UHGV virus genome: UHGV-0049967
DNA length: 38,088 nt
DNA from: a virus
Direction: 5' to 3' (one strand)
Shown here piece by piece: positions 1,401-7,484 of this stretch. The notes under the pieces are model-generated. The model was not told the origin of the DNA. It saw only the letters and a program-made list of their open reading frames with translations, and did not search any database. Position 1 is the stretch's first letter. Each line of letters starts with the position of its first letter. The position numbers were made by a program, and so were the translations under genes.

Positions 1401-3788
1401 TCATATTTTATTTAAGTTATTCTTTTTTAATGTCATCTCTAGTTCTTCGATACGTCTTTCTATATTATCAATTCTCTCCCAGCATTGCTGAATTGATTTA
1501 ACAATAGGTGGGATGAATTCATCGTAACCAAGTGAGTAAACATCATCCCCACCATTTTTCAAGTGATGCTGTAGCCCACCGAACTCAACACCTAATTTCT
1601 CACACAGTTTCAATACGTCCTGTGCAATAAACCAGTGATGGTATCGTTGACGTTTTTTACTGCCGTCAGGAGTTTTCTGCACTACTTCAAGATATTTTTC
1701 TTCGACATTCTCAATAGCTGATATAGTAATTCCATCAACATCTCGTTCTACTTTTTTTGGTACAATTCTTGTTTTTTCAATAACATCAATATAATCATCA
1801 CGCATATCCCAGCGACCATCGACAGGGCGAAGTCCAAGGATAAATTCAATCCCCAGCAAAGTATCTCGGATATCTGTTTTATCACGCGCATCAGATCTGT
1901 TTTGCACAGTTCCATATACATATGTCGTTGTGGAAGAATTGCCAAGCTGCACCTGATTACTTCCAGACACCCTTGCATCATTGCCAACAGTTGTTGTGTT
2001 GGTAAGTGATGATGTGCTTTCCCCTGATTGAGTTAATCTACCTGAATTATGTCCAATAGCCGTGTTTAATGCGCCGGTTGTATTTGTGACAAGAGAGCCA
2101 GACCCAATTGCAACGTTACTGCTTCCCGATGTTGTTCCTTTTAATGCCTGCTGTCCAACCGCAACATTATTATCACCCGTTGCTGCTATAAGTGCCATGT
2201 GACCAATAGAAACGGTAAATGAACCTAGCGTTTGAGTTTCACCGCATGCACCATAACCAATTACAACAACATTATCTGTAATTGTTGACTCGGTTGCCGC
2301 TCCAGCACCAATAACAACGCTTTCATTCCCTGCAAGATTCTTGCGCATTGCGAACATTCCAATGCCAACATTATCATGCCCAGTCCCTGTACCTGCTGCC
2401 TCCGCAGCACCAAGACAGTTTCCCGCTCTGTAGCCAACCATGGTGTTATTTGAACCAATAGAGAAGTCTCCGGCAAAAGAGCCTACGTATACACTATTAG
2501 ACTGTGAGTAATCTCCAGGATTTCCATTCGCCCGATATCCTACTGCAACTGTATAAATAGTATCTGGAGCCTCAGCCATGGCCTCAAAGCCAACTCCAAC
2601 GTTATATCTACCGCCCTTAACTTTTTCTCCTGCACCAAGTCCGAAGAATGAGTTATAGCTCCCGGTTGTTAGCCACTCGCCAGCAACAGAACCTACAGCA
2701 GTGTTTCCTGTTCCAGTACATCGATACAAAGTCAGGAAGCCAACTCCGGTATTATTATTTCCTGAAATATTACTCATCAATGATTTTGACCCAATGGCAG
2801 TATTGTTAACACCATCGGTCAGATCCTGTAACGCTCGCGGGCCAAATGCTGTATTATCGTAACCCTTTGGCGCTGTTGTTGGATCTGGTAACTCCGGGGT
2901 TAGTTTTTCACCACCACCACCATTGGCACAAAGATTGTAAGATCGAATAAATTCAGCCACTGGCCCAAGTTTCAGATAACCATTGGCAATATTAATTCTG
3001 ACACTTACATTAACTGAGCTACCAGGAGCTTCTATTGTCCTGTCATCAACCCAGGTAAAACTCTGTGGTATCCCGTCATAAGTTAATGTCACATCTCCTT
3101 TATCATTATAATTATAGAACAATGTATAACGCTCATTTATAGATTCAGAACCTGATGATCCTCCTCTCCTCCACCACTCTGCATTATCAAAAATAAGTAA
3201 TCCTGGACCATAATATTTTCCCTTCTGACCCAAGATCATAGGAGTTGATAATCGCCACCTTCCCTCTGGAACATATACATCGATACCAGTTCTTTCTGCG
3301 TCTTTAAACGATTCATCACATAATACAACACCACCTTCAACAGCACCAAATCCACGAACATCACCATTATCTCTCCATCGAGCCATTTGCAACTCAGGAT
3401 ACTTCTTAGCGCCATCAATGTCTTCTAATTGGTTCCGCAGCTGATCAGGATCATACTTCAGTACATTAGGAAAATAGAACTGCTGAGCACCGTAAGCATC
3501 ATATACAGCCATAGAATGGCCTTGCACAGTTACGAACTTAGCAATCTGTCCGTTATATACAGGGTAACCAGCAGCGTTAAGGATGATTGGTTGCGAAACA
3601 GGAATGTGAGAACCATCTTCACTCTCTACATAAACCGGAATCTGGTTTGCTGTATTTACCGGGTCAGTGTCAATTTTACCGATATAAATTTTGCCATTAG
3701 CTACAGCTTTAAAAGAGCGAGCCATAGTGAAGAGTTGCGATGGCATCCCAATTACAACATTTGGAGTTATATTAGGCATATTAGTCAT
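1401..3788 (-). CDS. Tailspike/tail fibre: P22 gp9-like head-binding N-terminus, Gly/Asn-rich beta-helix repeat region, C-terminal intramolecular chaperone (peptidase S74-like) domain
   Basis: N-terminus [47 protein letters not shown]...[13 protein letters not shown] matches the P22 tailspike head-binding domain; central degenerate repeats (NTAIG, NVAVG, VGYRAG); C-terminal ...[11 protein letters not shown]... resembles the self-cleaving chaperone domain of endosialidase-type fibres. Start placed at MTNMPN (AGGA precedes); the ORF-track N-terminal extension to 3872 is considered unlikely. Confidence 0.85.
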
Positions 3789-4123
3789 CCTGTTTGAAAA
3801 CTTAGAAATTGAATAAAAAGGAATGACTGTAGACAAAGATGCAAGTGTTTTGAAAAATAATCTTCTATTCATTTTAAATCATGCAACACAAAAAAACGAT
3901 TATTTTACAACGAGCAAGAATCTTGATCAACAGACATATATTTTAATTGCTGAATACGTCACTTAAAAATGACAAGTACTACTTTTATTCCTATCGTCCA
4001 TGATTTTAATTTTCAAATATTATTAAATAACAATTCCTATTTATAATATCTGTCATTTAATTTGCTCCAGATACAAGTAATCGCTGCAGCATGACTGCAG
4101 TAATACATAATCAATCATACAAC

Positions 4124-4140
4124 AAGACCACCGTGGTCTT
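4124..4140. promoter_or_regulatory. 17-bp perfect palindrome AAGACCACCGTGGTCTT, probable Mnt operator
   Basis: Perfect inverted repeat with CCAC(C)GTGG core, located in the divergent mnt/tailspike intergenic region, the position of Omnt in P22 immI. Confidence 0.5.
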
Positions 4141-4202
4141 ATTGAGGATGCAACCAGCAGATAATAAGATGCCGATCCACTCACAAGAGCGAGGCATCAA
4201 GA

Positions 4203-4454
4203 ATGGGAAGAGATGACCCGCAATTTAATCTGCGGCTACCTTACGAATTAAAGGAAAAACTAAAACAGCGAGCCAAATCAAATGGCCGCTCTCTTAATTC
4301 AGAATTAGTTCAGATAGTGACTGATGCTGTATCAAAGCCATCCAAAATTTCAGGCTATCGAGACGATGCGGAACGCATCGCTGATGAGCAGTCAGAGCTT
4401 GTTAAGAAGATGGTGTTTGATACGCTGAAGGATTTGTACAAAAAACCCACCTGA
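4203..4454 (+). CDS. mnt: Mnt repressor (ribbon-helix-helix, Arc/MetJ superfamily)
   Basis: MGRDDPQFNLRLPYELKEKLKQRAKSNGRSLNSELVQIV...GYRDDAERIADEQSELVKKMVFDTLKDLYKK is nearly colinear with P22 Mnt as I remember it. Confidence 0.9.
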   Translation: MGRDDPQFNLRLPYELKEKLKQRAKSNGRSLNSELVQIVTDAVSKPSKISGYRDDAERIADEQSELVKKMVFDTLKDLYKKPT

Positions 4455-4470
4455 AGGTGGGTTAATTTTT
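4441..4470 (+). terminator. Rho-independent terminator after mnt
   Basis: ACCCACC-TGAA-GGTGGGT hairpin flanked by an A-run and TAATTTTT; the mnt stop codon lies in the loop. Confidence 0.6.
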
Positions 4471-4553
4471 GCATTTACCTGGGCCATATTGACTACTTAT
4501 AAAATGAGATCAATATTTAATCGCCCAATAACGGGTGTATGTTGAGGTATATC

Positions 4554-4733
4554 ATGGCGAAAAAACCAGGTGAAAACACAGGAAAAAACGGCGGAATATA
4601 CCAAGAAGTTGGCCCACGCGGCGGTAAGAAAGACAATTTTGCAACCGTCAAGGACAACGAAAGGCTTCCACCAACAACAAAGCCAGGTCATGGCTGGGTA
4701 TTGGATAAGCGAACTCCAGACAGCAAAAAGTAA
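4554..4733 (+). CDS. Small basic protein (59 aa), unknown function; possibly YjzC-like small protein family
   Basis: GAGGT SD 5 nt upstream of ATG; sequence MAKKPGENTGKNGGIYQEVGPRGG...GHGWVLDKR. Family assignment is from memory only. Confidence 0.5.
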   Translation: MAKKPGENTGKNGGIYQEVGPRGGKKDNFATVKDNERLPPTTKPGHGWVLDKRTPDSKK

Positions 4734-4738
4734 TAATC

Positions 4739-4761
4739 AAGCCGGGTCACTCCGGCTTTTT
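4739..4761. terminator. Shared hairpin between convergent genes (bidirectional terminator candidate)
   Basis: AAGCCGG-GTCACT-CCGGCTT followed by TTTTT on the plus strand; the stop codon of the minus-strand HExxH gene sits in the loop. Confidence 0.5.
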
Positions 4762-5112
4762 GATATGTCGCTCGCAGAACTCAACAAGCCTGCTCATTAA
4801 GTAGCAGTAAGTCTCGTTGGCTCTTCCTGGTTCAACATCAACACCTACCCTTGAGCAGATATCGAATGCCATGTGAGCGCACTCATGGGCAATAGTAGAT
4901 AGTTTGCCATTGAACACGCCTATCACATGCAAAACACCATTCTCGCTACTCATTGTATGAGACGCTCCGTTGGCGTCCGAGTCATGCACGTCAACGCCAA
5001 GTTTTTGATGCAGGCGTTGCCATTCTGGAAAGTCTCTACAAAACACAATTGTACCGCTCTCAAAGAGCGGAACGAGCATCTTTGGTACGTTTCCAATGTT
5101 AACTTTTTTCAT
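4747..5112 (-). CDS. 121-aa HExxH (zincin-like) protein of unknown function
   Basis: HECAHMAFD motif with a downstream Glu (EPGRANE) suggests a minimal gluzincin; AGGA SD 4 nt before ATG; low-GC context. Confidence 0.6.
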   Translation of the reverse strand: MKKVNIGNVPKMLVPLFESGTIVFCRDFPEWQRLHQKLGVDVHDSDANGASHTMSSENGVLHVIGVFNGKLSTIAHECAHMAFDICSRVGVDVEPGRANETYCYLMSRLVEFCERHIKKPE

Positions 5113-5142
5113 GGTATCCTGCGCAAAACTAAGGAGGTTGGT

Positions 5143-5592
5143 GTGAGTGAAAAATTATCAGTTGAGATTTACAGGGATGCAAAAAAATTGATTAAAAAGG
5201 CATTGCTGATTTCCCTATCTTTGTTAGCCATTGCCATTGTTTATTTTGTGGCAGACAAAATCTATACAGAACAAAAAAATAGCAAAAAAAATGCTGAGCT
5301 GATTATGCGCGCAGAAAATGTTGTCAAGGGTAAATCACCCATGGTATTCAACAGAACATTCCTTGGCGAAAGCTCCTCTATTTCTGTTTGGTTTATTAAT
5401 GATTCAGATGGGCATATTCTTGTAGAAAAAAACGGTGAAAAATCATTGTTTTCATCAAGAGAATCCGTATACGGTGGCATCAATGCATACCATCAAGCCG
5501 GAAAGGCATGTGAAACCCTGTCTTTTTCTATGACTTCAGGTTTTGTGATATCTGTTTCTTGCGATTTTGATGATTATTACACTAAAAAATAG
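5143..5592 (+). CDS. N-terminally anchored membrane protein (about 149 aa), candidate superinfection-exclusion protein
   Basis: AAGGAGG SD 5 nt before the GTG start; one predicted TM helix (ALLISLSLLAIAIVYFVADKIY) followed by a roughly 110-aa domain; occupies the position of sieA in P22; about 35 percent GC by eye. Confidence 0.55.
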   Translation: MSEKLSVEIYRDAKKLIKKALLISLSLLAIAIVYFVADKIYTEQKNSKKNAELIMRAENVVKGKSPMVFNRTFLGESSSISVWFINDSDGHILVEKNGEKSLFSSRESVYGGINAYHQAGKACETLSFSMTSGFVISVSCDFDDYYTKK

Positions 5593-5609
5593 CCATCCAT
5601 GGCATTTAG

Positions 5610-7484
5610 TCACTGCTGTGTTGCCTCAGTAGCAAACAGCGGTCTGATGGCATTCGCAGCATTATTTAGCGCTCTTTCATAGGCTGGTGTTCCTGCTTTG
5701 GTGTTTGCCAAGCGTAAGAGAGCATTCCTTGCTGCTCTGGATTCATACAAGCGCATCATTGCACCGAAACCAGCCTCAAGCCCCATTGATACGCCAAGAG
5801 TCGCAGTTGCGCCAATCGTCCTTATCCTGTTGGCTTGCGATTGCCCCGTCTGAGTTACTACATTTGCGGTGTCTGACCTTGCTGTTTGCTGTAGAACTTC
5901 ATGAAGAGCATCAAGTTCTTTCATGTGCTTTCCAGAAAAAATAGTGTTGTAAATTTCACCGCCTGACTGAGATTTCAGCTTATTAACTTCAGTGATGAAC
6001 TTGGCTGGAGAGTCACCGGCCTTTTCCGCTATTTTGCTGACGTAAGCTGCACGCATAGCATCTTTCCCTTTATCATCCAGTGCACTCCAGATTCGTTTCA
6101 CGTCAGATGGTTTTCTGCTTAATACAACGGTATTTATAAGTTCAGGACTGGCTTCACTGCTTGCCTTGTTGAGTTTGTTAGCAATGTTTTTATTAAGCAC
6201 CTTATTATAAACGTTTGCATAATCGGAATTTGCTTTAAGGTATTTTGCTGCGTCTGATGCACCGAGGTTTTTAGCAACTGCGTTACGAAGGTCTTTTGAC
6301 ATTGCATTCTCTACCATATTGGTAGCTGCTTTTGCCCGGTTGGGGAAGACCATAGCATCTCCCTGAACATTAGATCTAAATGCTGTTCTGTGCTGACGCA
6401 AGAGATCAAACGTAACATCCAAATCAGTTGCAGGGTTTGCTAATTCTTCACGTAGGTTACGCAAGGATGTAAGCAGGCTTTGATTGGCAGACGTCCCAAG
6501 CCGTTCCTGTCTTGCGATCGCTGTATTCAGAGCATTCATGGTATTTGTGGTATCAACTGCGGCATTACCCATTTTATTGGTGACGTCATTGATAACAGCG
6601 CCAGCGGCATCCTTCCGTCCCCTTAACGTGGTGGTCAGAGATTTCACCACATCATCCGGGTTGTACTCACCAAAACGGTCAAAATAATTACTTACCAACT
6701 TACTACGCGTTGCATATTGCTCCGCTCGCTTTGAGCCTGTCCCGAGCAAAGCCCCCTCGGCATCCTGAGTAAGACCGCGAGTGAAAGCATTTTTCGGCTG
6801 GATAACATCAGATGTCATAGGTGTCACGCCCATCGATTCTGAGGTGGCAATTTTTTTCGCTACTTCTGGCGCGATATCGCCTTTTATAGCCGTTATTCCA
6901 CGCCCTATTCCCTTTGCTGCTGCGGAAAGAACACCCTGAGCGGCAAGGTTAACTCCGGCGTTTATGGCTGCATTTTGCGCGAAATCGCCTTTCTGGTTTG
7001 CGGCTTCTGCCAGTGATCCTATAGCCATGCTTCCTGCCGTTCCAACTCCTGGAACTAAATACCCGCCAATTGTTTCTCCAGCTTGCGCATAAGGGTCTGT
7101 TGGTCGATCTACTGGACGATAGACATCGTCCAAAACCTTGGGGCCACCAAGCCCCTGGCTGATTGCATTAATCAGACTTGCGCCACCCTGCAATACGTCA
7201 AATGGTATGTTTACCAGACCACGACCAGCCTGCTCTGCAATTTGCCCTGCACTTTGACCACCTGTGAGCCAATCGCCAGCTTGTTGCATCAATGATGGCT
7301 CTTCTTTCTGCTGCTGAGGCGGAGGGTATGCTGCATAAAACTGATCTCTTGCTTCAGCCCATTTGTCACCAGCCTTAGGGGCAACAACCTCATCAAAATA
7401 TTGCGCTTGAGCCTGTGCTTTCTGTTCTTCAGTTAACGCCTGATACTGTGGAGAGGCGATAACATCTTTCCATGCTTTAGCCAT
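5610..7484 (-). CDS. gp16: Ejection (E) protein, P22 gp16-like
   Basis: Size (624 aa) and position downstream of the gp20 homolog; Ala/Gly/Gln-rich as in P22 gp16. Confidence 0.8.

What the first reader, a model, noticed from the sequence alone, without database searches (positions are those of the whole stretch)
4471..5609. Low-GC three-gene accessory cassette at the sieA/immI position: small basic protein, HExxH zincin-like protein, anchored membrane protein
Between mnt and the gp16 ejection gene, where P22 carries sieA, this phage has three unrelated genes with visibly lower GC than the structural backbone. They are a 59-aa basic protein (4554-4733, +), a 121-aa protein with an HECAHMAFD motif (4747-5112, -) and a 149-aa protein with one N-terminal TM helix (5143-5592, +). 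The first two are convergent with the HExxH stop codon inside a shared hairpin; the last two are divergent with only 30 bp between starts. The position and membrane topology suggest a superinfection-exclusion or abortive-infection module. The pairing of a minimal metallopeptidase-like protein with a membrane protein is not an arrangement I recognise.
Basis: partly seen in the sequence, partly recalled or inferred. Interest (0 to 1): 0.8.

Follow-up and report, generated by a model that had tools for sequence, protein, structure and literature searches.

The report
New membrane gene in P22 sieA slot
Only one of the three genes is new: a rare membrane protein sits exactly where phage P22 keeps its superinfection-exclusion gene sieA and uses the same promoter and start codon, so it probably blocks incoming phages too, while the other two genes are ordinary P22/HK620 genes (59a and hkcC) of unknown function.

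Summary
The three ORFs exist at the stated coordinates, but they are not a three-gene cassette. Window 4356-5145 is 97.5% identical to phage P22 itself. It carries P22 orf59a, the HExxH ORF (99.2% identical to HK620 hkcC), the t_mnt hairpin and the PsieA promoter.

Homology to P22 stops immediately after the shared ribosome-binding site and GTG start codon of sieA. Only ORF3 (5143-5592, 35% GC) is a replacement. In 87 related loci, at least 12 unrelated proteins occupy this slot, and 10 of them start at that same GTG. Eleven of the 12 are predicted envelope proteins.

ORF3 belongs to a small undescribed family with no Pfam, PHROG, NCBIfam or PADLOC match and no hit in deposited phage genomes. 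It occurs in 5 of 5426 E. coli genomes. It has one N-terminal transmembrane helix, a stalk, and an 8-stranded beta-barrel with two invariant cysteines, probably periplasmic. Members down to 25% identity always sit next to the last ejection-protein gene of P22-like prophages, with or without hkcC.

hkcC homologs lie in late operons of other phages without any membrane partner. Its HExxH...E motif is invariant, but no zincin fold match was found.

Best reading: ORF3 is a prophage-expressed analogue of SieA, not a homologue. That function is inferred, not shown.

The parts
4203..4454 (+). mnt (Arc/Mnt-type repressor, 83 aa). This is the left backbone of the 'ant moron'. The N-terminal half differs from P22 Mnt; near-identity to P22 begins at about 4356.
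   Evidence: Pfam Arc E 2.8e-22 and Repressor_Mnt E 2.2e-18; alignment to P22.
4444..4463 (.). GC-rich hairpin with T runs on both sides, overlapping the end of mnt.
   Evidence: Terminator-like scan, both strands.
4554..4733 (+). orf59a (P22 gene 59a): a small basic protein of unknown function. It is transcribed in the mnt direction.
   Evidence: 98.3% aa identity to the annotated P22-pbi orf59a; phrog_3202 E 7e-31; weak YjzC-like match at 19.4 bits, below the 25-bit cut-off.
4739..4758 (.). t_mnt hairpin. It looks like a good terminator for the + strand (mnt-59a transcript) and has a poor T tail on the - strand. The hkcC stop codon lies in its loop.
   Evidence: annotated as terminator t mnt in P22-pbi at the homologous place.
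4747..5112 (-). hkcC: a 121-aa protein with invariant H76-E77-x-x-H80 and E100. It is on the same strand as gene 16 and the tailspike gene (late transcript direction). Function unknown.
   Evidence: 99.2% aa identity to the annotated hkcC of HK620 and to the unannotated ORF in P22; phrog_1365 E 1.7e-39; motif conservation; AF2 model pLDDT 83.7.
5058..5142 (+). PsieA promoter region. These are the 85 bp upstream of the start codon, with one mismatch to P22. The annotated P22 PsieA maps to about 5082-5112, inside the 5' end of hkcC.
   Evidence: P22-pbi annotation transferred through alignment A1. In P22, sieA with 85 bp of upstream sequence, inserted in the Salmonella chromosome, gave at least 10^7-fold exclusion (PMC10883804).
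5125..5145 (+). Conserved junction AAAACTAAGGAGGTTGGTGTG (ribosome-binding site plus GTG start). This is the left border of the exchangeable slot.
   Evidence: The same 21-mer, with occasional point variants, precedes 10 unrelated coding sequences in 87 loci. Divergence begins at codon 2. It is also seen in L004.
5143..5592 (+). ORF3: a 149-aa bitopic membrane protein. It has a conserved N-terminal tail (Y10, D12, K14), a TM helix at about 20-38, a helical stalk to about 61, and an 8-stranded beta-barrel at 67-146 with invariant C123 and C140. It occupies the sieA slot.
5593..5609 (.). 17-nt spacer to the gene 16 stop codon, containing a small palindrome (GCCATCCATGGC). This is the right border of the slot. 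No convincing + strand terminator follows.
   Evidence: Sequence; terminator scans; the spacer is 17 nt in all 5 ORF3 loci of the survey.
5610..7484 (-). Gene 16 homolog (ejection / DNA transfer protein), convergent with ORF3.
   Evidence: ORF list; RefSeq 'DNA transfer protein' in the 99%-identical E. coli locus; PF26808 Phage_P22_gp16 in homologous loci.

Best explanation

Two of the three genes are conserved P22/HK620 backbone. orf59a is transcribed with mnt and ends at t_mnt. hkcC lies on the late strand.

The third gene, ORF3, is a single-gene cassette in the sieA slot. It sits behind the P22 PsieA promoter, ribosome-binding site and GTG start codon, and is convergent with gene 16.

ORF3 is predicted to be anchored in the inner membrane with its N-terminus in the cytoplasm. 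A helical stalk would hold a small disulfide-bonded 8-stranded beta-barrel in the periplasm.

The most likely function is that of SieA, achieved by a non-homologous protein. ORF3 would be made at a low constitutive level in the lysogen and would stop superinfecting P22-like phages at the DNA-entry step. It would bind or obstruct the periplasmic and inner-membrane conduit built by ejection proteins gp7, gp20 and gp16, or block a step that conduit needs.

What is shown: locus anatomy, promoter and start-codon sharing, family distribution, purifying selection, and predicted topology and fold. What is inferred: expression in lysogens, periplasmic location, the exclusion function and its target.

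hkcC is most likely an independent late-expressed accessory protein with a metal-binding HExxH...E site. Its role is unknown and it is not a partner of ORF3.
For: Locus anatomy:
- Window 4356-5145 is 97.5% identical to P22, and homology stops right after the sieA GTG.
- The 85 bp upstream of the GTG has one mismatch to P22. In P22, sieA plus that upstream segment gave at least 10^7-fold exclusion (PMC10883804).

The slot:
- In 87 loci with a near-identical hkcC flank it holds 12 unrelated proteins: SieA type A, a lipoprotein, signal-peptide proteins, 1-TM and 2-TM proteins, ORF3, and one apparently soluble protein. Ten of them begin at the same GTG.
- One gp16 C-terminal type (at least 90% identity) is paired with 5 different slot types, so the cassette is exchanged at both borders.

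The ORF3 family:
- 12 full-length representatives were found, down to 25% identity.
- Every member whose locus was fetched with enough flanking sequence to identify its neighbours lies about 13-21 bp from the 3' end of the last ejection-protein gene of a P22-like prophage, convergent with it. L092 is too short for its neighbour to be identified.
- dN/dS is 0.12-0.13.
- Net flank charge is +35 on the N side of the TM helix and +4 on the C side. Every member has exactly two Cys in the C-terminal domain, both invariant.
- The AF2 model has pLDDT 88.6, and all five models are between 87.6 and 88.6.

hkcC independence.
Against: - There is no experimental datum on ORF3. It has no sequence similarity to SieA (BLASTP E 33) or to any PADLOC, Pfam, PHROG or NCBIfam family.
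- Slot context is only suggestive. Apart from SieA, none of the slot occupants matched a family of known function in Pfam or PHROGs, and ant-moron genes need not be exclusion genes.
- Topology rests on charge bias and cysteine conservation only.
- ORF3 is rare (5 of 5426 E. coli genomes), so it could be of marginal benefit.
- In the P22-like prophage BTP1 the exclusion agent from this interval is an antisense RNA, not a protein (PMC7067206).
Confidence: 0.5

Rival explanations
1. The three genes form one accessory superinfection-exclusion or abortive-infection module in which a minimal HExxH metallopeptidase works together with the anchored membrane protein.
For: The genes are adjacent. The starts of hkcC and ORF3 are divergent and 30 bp apart. 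HExxH is invariant. One distant locus (L093) also has mnt-59a-hkcC followed by an ORF3 homolog.
Against: - 59a and hkcC are present in P22 and HK620 next to sieA or other genes at 98-99% identity.
- The same hkcC flank is combined with 12 unrelated slot genes.
- ORF3 homologs occur without hkcC in L003, L004, L094/L095 and ExPEC XM.
- 0 of 80 distant hkcC loci have ORF3 or SieA nearby.
- hkcC is on the late strand while ORF3 is on the prophage-expressed strand.
- Only ORF3 has low GC.
Confidence: 0.03
2. ORF3 is a lysogenic-conversion envelope protein that benefits the host in a way unrelated to phage entry. Examples would be a membrane-tethered periplasmic inhibitor or binding protein (lysozyme-inhibitor-like), or a stress or virulence factor.
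Against: - No Pfam MliC/PliC hit for any of the 14 family members.
- No solved-structure sequence relative.
- The family was found only in P22-like prophages, and always against the ejection-protein gene.
- The slot's one characterised occupant is an exclusion protein.
Confidence: 0.25
3. The active product is partly or wholly RNA. The PsieA transcript reads through ORF3 into the 3' end of gene 16 in antisense. It would silence the late mRNA of an incoming related phage, as STnc6030 does in the P22-like prophage BTP1.
For: STnc6030 arises in the same interval of BTP1, is antisense to the 3' end of the gene 16 homolog, and confers immunity (PMC7067206). In the window, no terminator-like site follows ORF3 within about 700 nt on the + strand. 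ORF3 is convergent with gene 16 and only 17 nt away.
Against: - ORF3 is a conserved protein family (25-100% identity) under purifying selection, with dN/dS of 0.12-0.13. An RNA-only role would not require this.
- P22 sieA, with the same geometry, acts as a protein (PMC10883804).
- The terminator scan is a crude consensus scan.
Confidence: 0.1
4. ORF3 is an abortive-infection membrane effector similar to Cap15: a transmembrane anchor plus a ligand-sensing beta-barrel that disrupts the membrane on activation.
Against: - 5% sequence identity and no PADLOC hit.
- No cyclase or other signal-generating partner gene is adjacent.
- The charge bias and the invariant Cys pair favour a periplasmic barrel, whereas Cap15's barrel faces the cytoplasm (Cap15 orientation is from my own knowledge).
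Confidence: 0.05

Closest known systems
P22 SieA (superinfection exclusion protein A, types A/B/C; phrog_7745)
   Same: Same genomic slot, between hkcC/mnt and gene 16 and convergent with gene 16. Same PsieA promoter region, ribosome-binding site and GTG start codon. Similar small size (149 vs 164 aa). Both are predicted inner-membrane proteins carried by P22-like prophages.
   Different: No sequence similarity (BLASTP E 33). ORF3 has one TM helix plus a beta-barrel domain, where SieA has 3-4 TM helices. ORF3 lacks the cytoplasmic FxRYPxEAxxFNK motif. Exclusion activity has not been tested for ORF3.
P22/HK620 'ant moron' genes hkcC and 59a (Villafane et al. 2008, PMC2629481)
   Same: ORF2 is hkcC (99.2% aa identity to the HK620 gene). 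ORF1 is 59a (98.3% aa identity to the P22 gene). Order, orientation and terminator are the same.
   Different: Nothing material. Here the moron lacks arc and ant, and mnt has a different N-terminal half.
Other single-pass or envelope-anchored phage exclusion proteins that block DNA entry (HK97 gp15, T4 Imm and Sp, T5 Llp, phi80 Cor). This comparison is from my own knowledge.
   Same: All are small prophage- or phage-encoded envelope proteins thought to act at DNA injection. T4 Sp and HK97 gp15 are likewise N-terminally anchored with a periplasmic domain.
   Different: No homology was detected to anything in Pfam, PHROGs or PADLOC. The target phages and ejection machinery differ. The mechanism has not been tested.
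Small 8-stranded beta-barrels: PliC/MliC-type periplasmic lysozyme inhibitors, Brucella PhiA, the ToxS periplasmic domain, the Cap15 barrel
   Different: 5-12% identity and no family HMM hit. ORF3 has its own conserved residues (W83, D87, D89, H91, G120, C123, C140). ORF3 is tethered by an N-terminal TM helix and stalk.
Minimal gluzincin or SprT-like HExxH metallopeptidases (comparison for hkcC)
   Same: Invariant HExxH, with an invariant Glu 20 residues after the second His, on the next helix. The secondary-structure order is beta-beta-alpha-beta-beta-alpha(HExxH)-alpha(E), as in minimal zincin domains.
   Different: No significant structural match to any solved zincin. The best zincin hit, SPRTN 6mdx_A, has Foldseek E 0.49 and TM 0.32. 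There is no Pfam or NCBIfam peptidase hit. Only 2 of 5 AF2 models were confident.

Membership tests
SieA (types A, B, C) | Detectable sequence similarity to SieA proteins | tested here: not met
   BLASTP of ORF3 against P22 SieA gives E 33. P22 SieA hits phrog_7745 at E 3.7e-108, while ORF3 hits no PHROG at E below 0.06.
SieA (types A, B, C) | Three (type A) or four (types B, C) transmembrane helices | tested here: not met
   A hydropathy scan finds one segment (about 15-41) in ORF3 and several in SieA. The AF2 model shows one long helix followed by a beta domain. The SieA description is from PMC10883804.
SieA (types A, B, C) | Conserved cytoplasmic motif FxRYPxEAxxFNK near the C-terminus | tested here: not met
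   The motif is absent from the ORF3 sequence and from the family alignment A3. The motif itself is taken from PMC10883804.
SieA (types A, B, C) | Located between the gene 16 and gene 9 homologs of a P22-like prophage | tested here: met
SieA (types A, B, C) | Blocks DNA injection by P22-like phages when expressed alone | not testable with these tools
   This needs plating, K+ efflux and DNA-entry assays.
hkcC family (phrog_1365) | Full-length sequence similarity to HK620 hkcC | tested here: met
   99.2% identity over 121 aa to the annotated hkcC of NC_002730; phrog_1365 E 1.7e-39.
Zincin / gluzincin metallopeptidases (for hkcC) | HExxH motif conserved across the family | tested here: met
   H76, E77 and H80 are invariant in 19 sequences down to 43% identity. 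The equivalent residues are invariant in 16 more distant members.
Zincin / gluzincin metallopeptidases (for hkcC) | Third metal ligand (Glu) on a following helix | tested here: inconclusive
   The invariant E100 in the ANET motif lies 20 residues after H80, at the start of helix 100-116. The geometry could not be measured.
Zincin / gluzincin metallopeptidases (for hkcC) | Structural similarity to solved zincin catalytic domains | tested here: not met
Zincin / gluzincin metallopeptidases (for hkcC) | Match to a curated peptidase family model | tested here: not met
   No Pfam or NCBIfam hit. One of the 19 members has SprT-like at E 0.055. A PDB profile search found nothing.
YjzC-like (PF14168) (for orf59a) | Score at or above the Pfam gathering threshold | tested here: not met
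   19.4 bits against a 25-bit cut-off, E 0.0013, covering 46 of 59 residues. This suggests a distant relationship only.
PliC/MliC lysozyme inhibitors (for the ORF3 barrel) | Family HMM or sequence-level match | tested here: not met
Cap15 (CBASS effector) | Encoded in an operon with a CD-NTase; recognised by defence-system models | tested here: not met
   No PADLOC hit. The neighbours are hkcC and gene 16 or other moron genes.

The most novel reading that the evidence does not exclude
The PsieA slot of P22-like prophages would be a plug-in expression platform. A fixed promoter, ribosome-binding site and GTG start codon would have at least a dozen unrelated envelope proteins swapped in from codon 2 onward. 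The ORF3 family would then be a fourth, structurally unrelated class of injection blocker. It would act from the periplasmic side through a stalk-mounted beta-barrel, by binding the gp20/gp16 conduit or an ejection-associated muralytic step, rather than within the membrane as SieA does. If so, the other slot occupants would form a ready-made catalogue of new exclusion proteins.
Probability: 0.3. Interest if true: 0.6.

Novelty: new variant of a known kind. Interest (0 to 1): 0.4.

Why it matters
SieA is the only characterised product of this slot, and its mechanism (interference with the gp16/gp20 DNA conduit) was worked out only in 2024. A non-homologous protein of different architecture, placed behind the same promoter and start codon, offers a natural comparison. 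If it also excludes P22-like phages, escape mutants would show which other face of the ejection conduit is vulnerable.

The survey also gives about ten further uncharacterised envelope proteins that can be tested with the same single-copy construct.

Separately, hkcC turns out to be a widespread late-operon family (278 clusters) with an invariant HExxH...E site and no known function. It often lies in the lysis-terminase accessory region, so it is a reasonable candidate for follow-up.

None of this changes the basic picture of the P22 ant moron, which was already known to be in rapid flux.

Tried and rejected
- Homology of ORF3 to SieA: rejected, along with TM count and motif.
- Family assignment of the three proteins in Pfam, PHROGs, PADLOC and NCBIfam. 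This gave only phrog_3202 and phrog_1365 (both of unknown function) and a sub-threshold YjzC hit; nothing for ORF3.
- Sequence-level link of the ORF3 barrel to solved structures: none.
- orf59a and hkcC as an obligate mobile pair. They are convergent neighbours in P22-type loci, in L093, and in one Rodentibacter prophage (73% and 46% identity). However, 0 of 80 distant hkcC loci contain 59a, so the link is not general.
- Co-variation of ORF3 with the gp16 type. ORF3 identity roughly tracks gp16 identity in six loci. Yet one gp16 C-terminal type carries five slot types, so physical linkage is the simpler explanation.
- ncRNA in the interval: no Rfam match better than E 0.1.
- ORF3 in isolated phages: no tblastn hit in 50,697 records.
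- One dN/dS comparison (L073) failed because of a coordinate or frame error and was discarded.
Full report
**What is in the sequence**

All three ORFs exist as described.
- ORF1: 4554-4733 (+), 59 aa, basic.
- ORF2: 4747-5112 (-), 121 aa, with HECAHMAFD.
- ORF3: 5143-5592 (+), GTG start, 149 aa, with one hydrophobic segment.

The stop codon of the 121-aa ORF lies in the loop of the hairpin at 4739-4758. The divergent starts of ORF2 and ORF3 are 30 bp apart. On the left lies an Arc/Mnt repressor gene, 4203-4454. On the right lies a gene 16-type ejection protein gene, 5610-7484, on the minus strand.

The low-GC claim holds for ORF3 only. ORF3 is 35.1% GC, orf59a 46.7% and the 121-aa ORF 46.2%, against 47.2% for the whole window.

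**Two of the three genes are P22 backbone**

A megablast search of deposited phage genomes shows that P22 itself carries window 4356-5145 at 97.5% identity. In the annotated P22-pbi record this stretch holds the following features:
- the end of mnt;
- orf59a;
- the t_mnt terminator;
- the PsieA promoter;
- the first bases of sieA.

The same 121-aa reverse ORF is present in P22 but is not annotated in that record. Its product is 99.2% identical to the annotated hkcC gene of coliphage HK620.

Villafane et al. 2008 (PMC2629481) call the interval between genes 16 and 9 the 'ant moron'. They describe it as being in rapid flux. [quoted passage not shown] So ORF1 is 59a and ORF2 is hkcC.

The pairwise alignment shows near-identity up to and including AAGGAGGTTGGTGTG, which is the ribosome-binding site and GTG start codon of sieA. 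From the next codon on there is no similarity. Only ORF3 replaces sieA, and it does so in frame at the same start codon.

**The slot is a general exchange site**

I collected 80 IMG/VR loci with a near-identical hkcC and added six annotated loci and the window. In each I read the gene that follows the junction. Twelve unrelated proteins occupy the slot:

| Occupant | Loci |
|---|---|
| 161-aa lipoprotein | 20 |
| SieA type A | 13 |
| 129-aa signal-peptide protein | 13 |
| 109-113-aa TM plus coiled-coil protein, second kind | 8 |
| 75-aa two-TM protein | 8 |
| 109-aa TM plus coiled-coil protein, first kind | 6 |
| 106-aa TM protein | 5 |
| ORF3 | 5 |
| 62-aa two-TM protein | 4 |
| 68-aa YobH-like protein | 2 |
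| 99-aa signal-peptide protein | 2 |
| 140-aa apparently soluble protein | 1 |

- Ten of the 12 start at the very same GTG after the conserved AAAACTAAGGAGGTTGGTGTG. One of them has ATG in a single locus.
- The lipoprotein brings its own ribosome-binding site and ATG. The first TM plus coiled-coil kind reads from a TTG three bases further on.
- Eleven of the 12 have an N-terminal hydrophobic, signal-peptide or lipobox start (read from the sequences; hydropathy run only on a subset).
- Each of the nine other non-SieA occupants scanned has its own PHROG of unknown function, and SieA is phrog_7745. The 140-aa soluble protein was not scanned against PHROGs. ORF3 has no PHROG.
- The last 150 residues of gp16 fall into clusters at 90% identity. 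The window's cluster is combined with five different slot types. The cassette is therefore exchanged at both borders.

**The ORF3 family**

ORF3 is rare.
- A word-indexed search of 5.8 billion proteins found only four clusters, at 71-99% identity.
- An exhaustive HMMER scan of 1.84 billion representatives found 12 full-length relatives, down to 25% identity.
- No deposited phage genome encodes a homolog.
- Five of 5426 complete E. coli genomes carry it, against 588 that carry the flanking sequence.

The alignment shows these invariant or nearly invariant positions:
- Y10, D12 and K14 in the N-terminal tail;
- A57;
- R71, W83, D87, G120, C123 and C140 in the C-terminal domain;
- nearly invariant D89, H91 and A119.

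Lys plus Arg total 58 on the N side of the TM helix and 39 on the C side. Net charge is +35 on the N side and +4 on the C side. Every member has exactly two cysteines in the C-terminal domain. Together these favour an N-in, C-out topology with a periplasmic disulfide. This is an inference.

AlphaFold2 on the 14-sequence alignment gave a confident model, pLDDT 88.6 with all five models between 87.6 and 88.6. It shows one long helix (residues 2-61: tail, TM segment and stalk) followed by eight beta-strands (67-146).

Sequence identity in these matches is 5-12%. This is a fold class and says nothing about function.

dN/dS against the 71-73% identical homologs is 0.12-0.13, so the protein is under purifying selection.

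**Where ORF3 relatives live**

Every member whose locus was fetched with enough flanking sequence to identify its neighbours lies in a P22-like prophage. Each is convergent with, and 13-21 bp from, the 3' end of the last ejection-protein gene. L092 is only 1.7 kb and its neighbouring genes could not be identified. The left neighbours differ.

| Locus | Left of ORF3 homolog |
|---|---|
| Window, L002, L067, L073, L089 | hkcC |
| L093 (33% identical ORF3) | mnt-59a-hkcC |
| L004, L094, L095 | mnt directly, no 59a or hkcC |
| L003 | a lipoprotein and other genes |
| E. coli ExPEC XM (100% identical ORF3) | a YafO-toxin-containing flank |

In L094 and L095 the adjacent ejection protein is an 894-aa SLT-domain protein. 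ORF3 is therefore tied to the slot next to gene 16, not to hkcC.

**hkcC**

A profile search found 278 clusters in Enterobacterales and Pasteurellaceae. All are about 120-130 aa and none has a Pfam domain.
- H76, E77, H80, N99 and E100 and two cysteines (C86, C103) are invariant across both alignments. C25 and C78 are not.
- The predicted secondary-structure order is beta-beta-alpha-beta-beta-alpha(HExxH)-alpha(E100). From my own knowledge, this is the order of a minimal gluzincin domain, and the 20-residue His-to-Glu spacing equals that of thermolysin.
- Only two of the five AF2 models were confident.
- No peptidase family model matches.

The motif is real and conserved. The zincin fold and any catalytic activity remain unproven.

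hkcC lies on the same strand as gene 16 and the tailspike gene. Distant homologs (about 40% identity) sit in late operons of other lambdoid prophages, co-oriented with the late genes. Typically they lie between Rz and the small terminase gene:
- 48 of 80 loci have a DUF2560 gene next to hkcC;
- two have a Tad2-like gene nearby (L009, L157);
- none has 59a, ORF3 or SieA nearby.

ST64T/L orf129 and epsilon34 gene 70 belong to this class. Some P22-like phages carry both copies. hkcC is therefore an independent gene, most likely expressed late.

**Mechanism proposed for ORF3**

The 85 bp upstream of the GTG differs from P22 at one base. In P22, sieA with exactly that upstream segment, placed in single copy in the chromosome, gave at least 10^7-fold exclusion (PMC10883804). 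I infer that ORF3 is expressed in the lysogen from PsieA.

[quoted passage not shown] Mutations that escape it map to the C-terminal regions of gp16 and gp20 (PMC10883804).

ORF3 has the same slot, the same expression signals, a membrane anchor and a probable periplasmic binding domain. It is also restricted to P22-like prophages and sits next to the ejection genes. The most economical reading is an analogous exclusion function carried out by a different architecture. I put this at about 0.5.

Alternatives:
- a host-benefit envelope protein unrelated to phage entry (0.25);
- an antisense-RNA effect of the PsieA transcript running into gene 16, as shown for STnc6030 in BTP1 (PMC7067206), with no terminator-like site after ORF3 (0.1);
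- a Cap15-like abortive-infection effector (0.05);

**Verdict**

It is wrong about what is accessory. The proposed pairing is not supported.

What remains is a rare, undescribed membrane-protein family occupying the sieA slot, together with a clear picture of that slot as a fixed-start-codon exchange site. This is a moderately interesting lead that can be tested directly. It is not a new kind of system.

Noticed in passing
window 5125-5145; loci L012-L091: The 21-mer AAAACTAAGGAGGTTGGTGTG (ribosome-binding site plus GTG) is a fixed left border of the sieA slot. Ten unrelated coding sequences start at that same GTG and diverge from codon 2. I did not find this described in the papers read.
   Followed up: yes
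L009, L011, L096-L175 (hkcC homolog at about 4001-4370 of each locus): Distant hkcC homologs sit in the lysis-to-terminase accessory region of many lambdoid prophages. They are next to a DUF2560 gene in 48 of 80 loci and close to a Tad2-like (anti-Thoeris family) gene in L009 and L157. This position often holds accessory or counter-defence genes.
   Followed up: partly
L010 5001-5581 (Rodentibacter haemolyticus prophage): An hkcC homolog (46% identity) is followed by a convergent orf59a homolog (73% identity) in a non-P22-type phage, between head genes. This is the same convergent pair as in P22. The pair is absent from 80 other distant hkcC loci, so the link is occasional and unexplained.
   Followed up: partly
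window 3873-4356: There are no arc or ant genes between the tailspike gene and mnt, only an AT-rich spacer (25-33% GC at 3750-4200). The 5' part of mnt (up to about 4356) diverges from P22 mnt, while the 3' end is near-identical. This suggests a mosaic joint inside mnt and possibly a different operator specificity.
   Followed up: no
L094 and L095, 5471-8155: In the prophages carrying the most distant ORF3 homolog (25% identity), the gene at the gene 16 position encodes an 894-aa protein with an SLT lytic-transglycosylase domain. This may bear on the idea that the ORF3 barrel meets a muralytic ejection protein.
   Followed up: no
L176 (E. coli ExPEC XM, NZ_CP025328 837161-843610): A 100% identical ORF3 lies next to gene 16, but the left flank holds a YafO-family toxin gene, two hypothetical genes and a truncated antirepressor gene instead of mnt-59a-hkcC. 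The record has a second match to ORF3 elsewhere that I did not inspect.
   Followed up: partly
phage records ST160, SE1, ST-32, SW-70, UAB_Phi20: Some P22-like phages have two matches to hkcC. Probably one is in the ant moron and the other is a roughly 38-40% identical paralog (orf129 type) at the lysis-terminase junction.
   Followed up: no
window 1401-3872 (-): The tailspike ORF as listed (823 aa) starts at an upstream ATG. By eye, the sequence resembling the P22 head-binding domain begins about 30 residues in (MPNITPNVV...), so the true start is probably internal. The 3' part of the gene has low GC (33-39% at 1200-1950).
   Followed up: no
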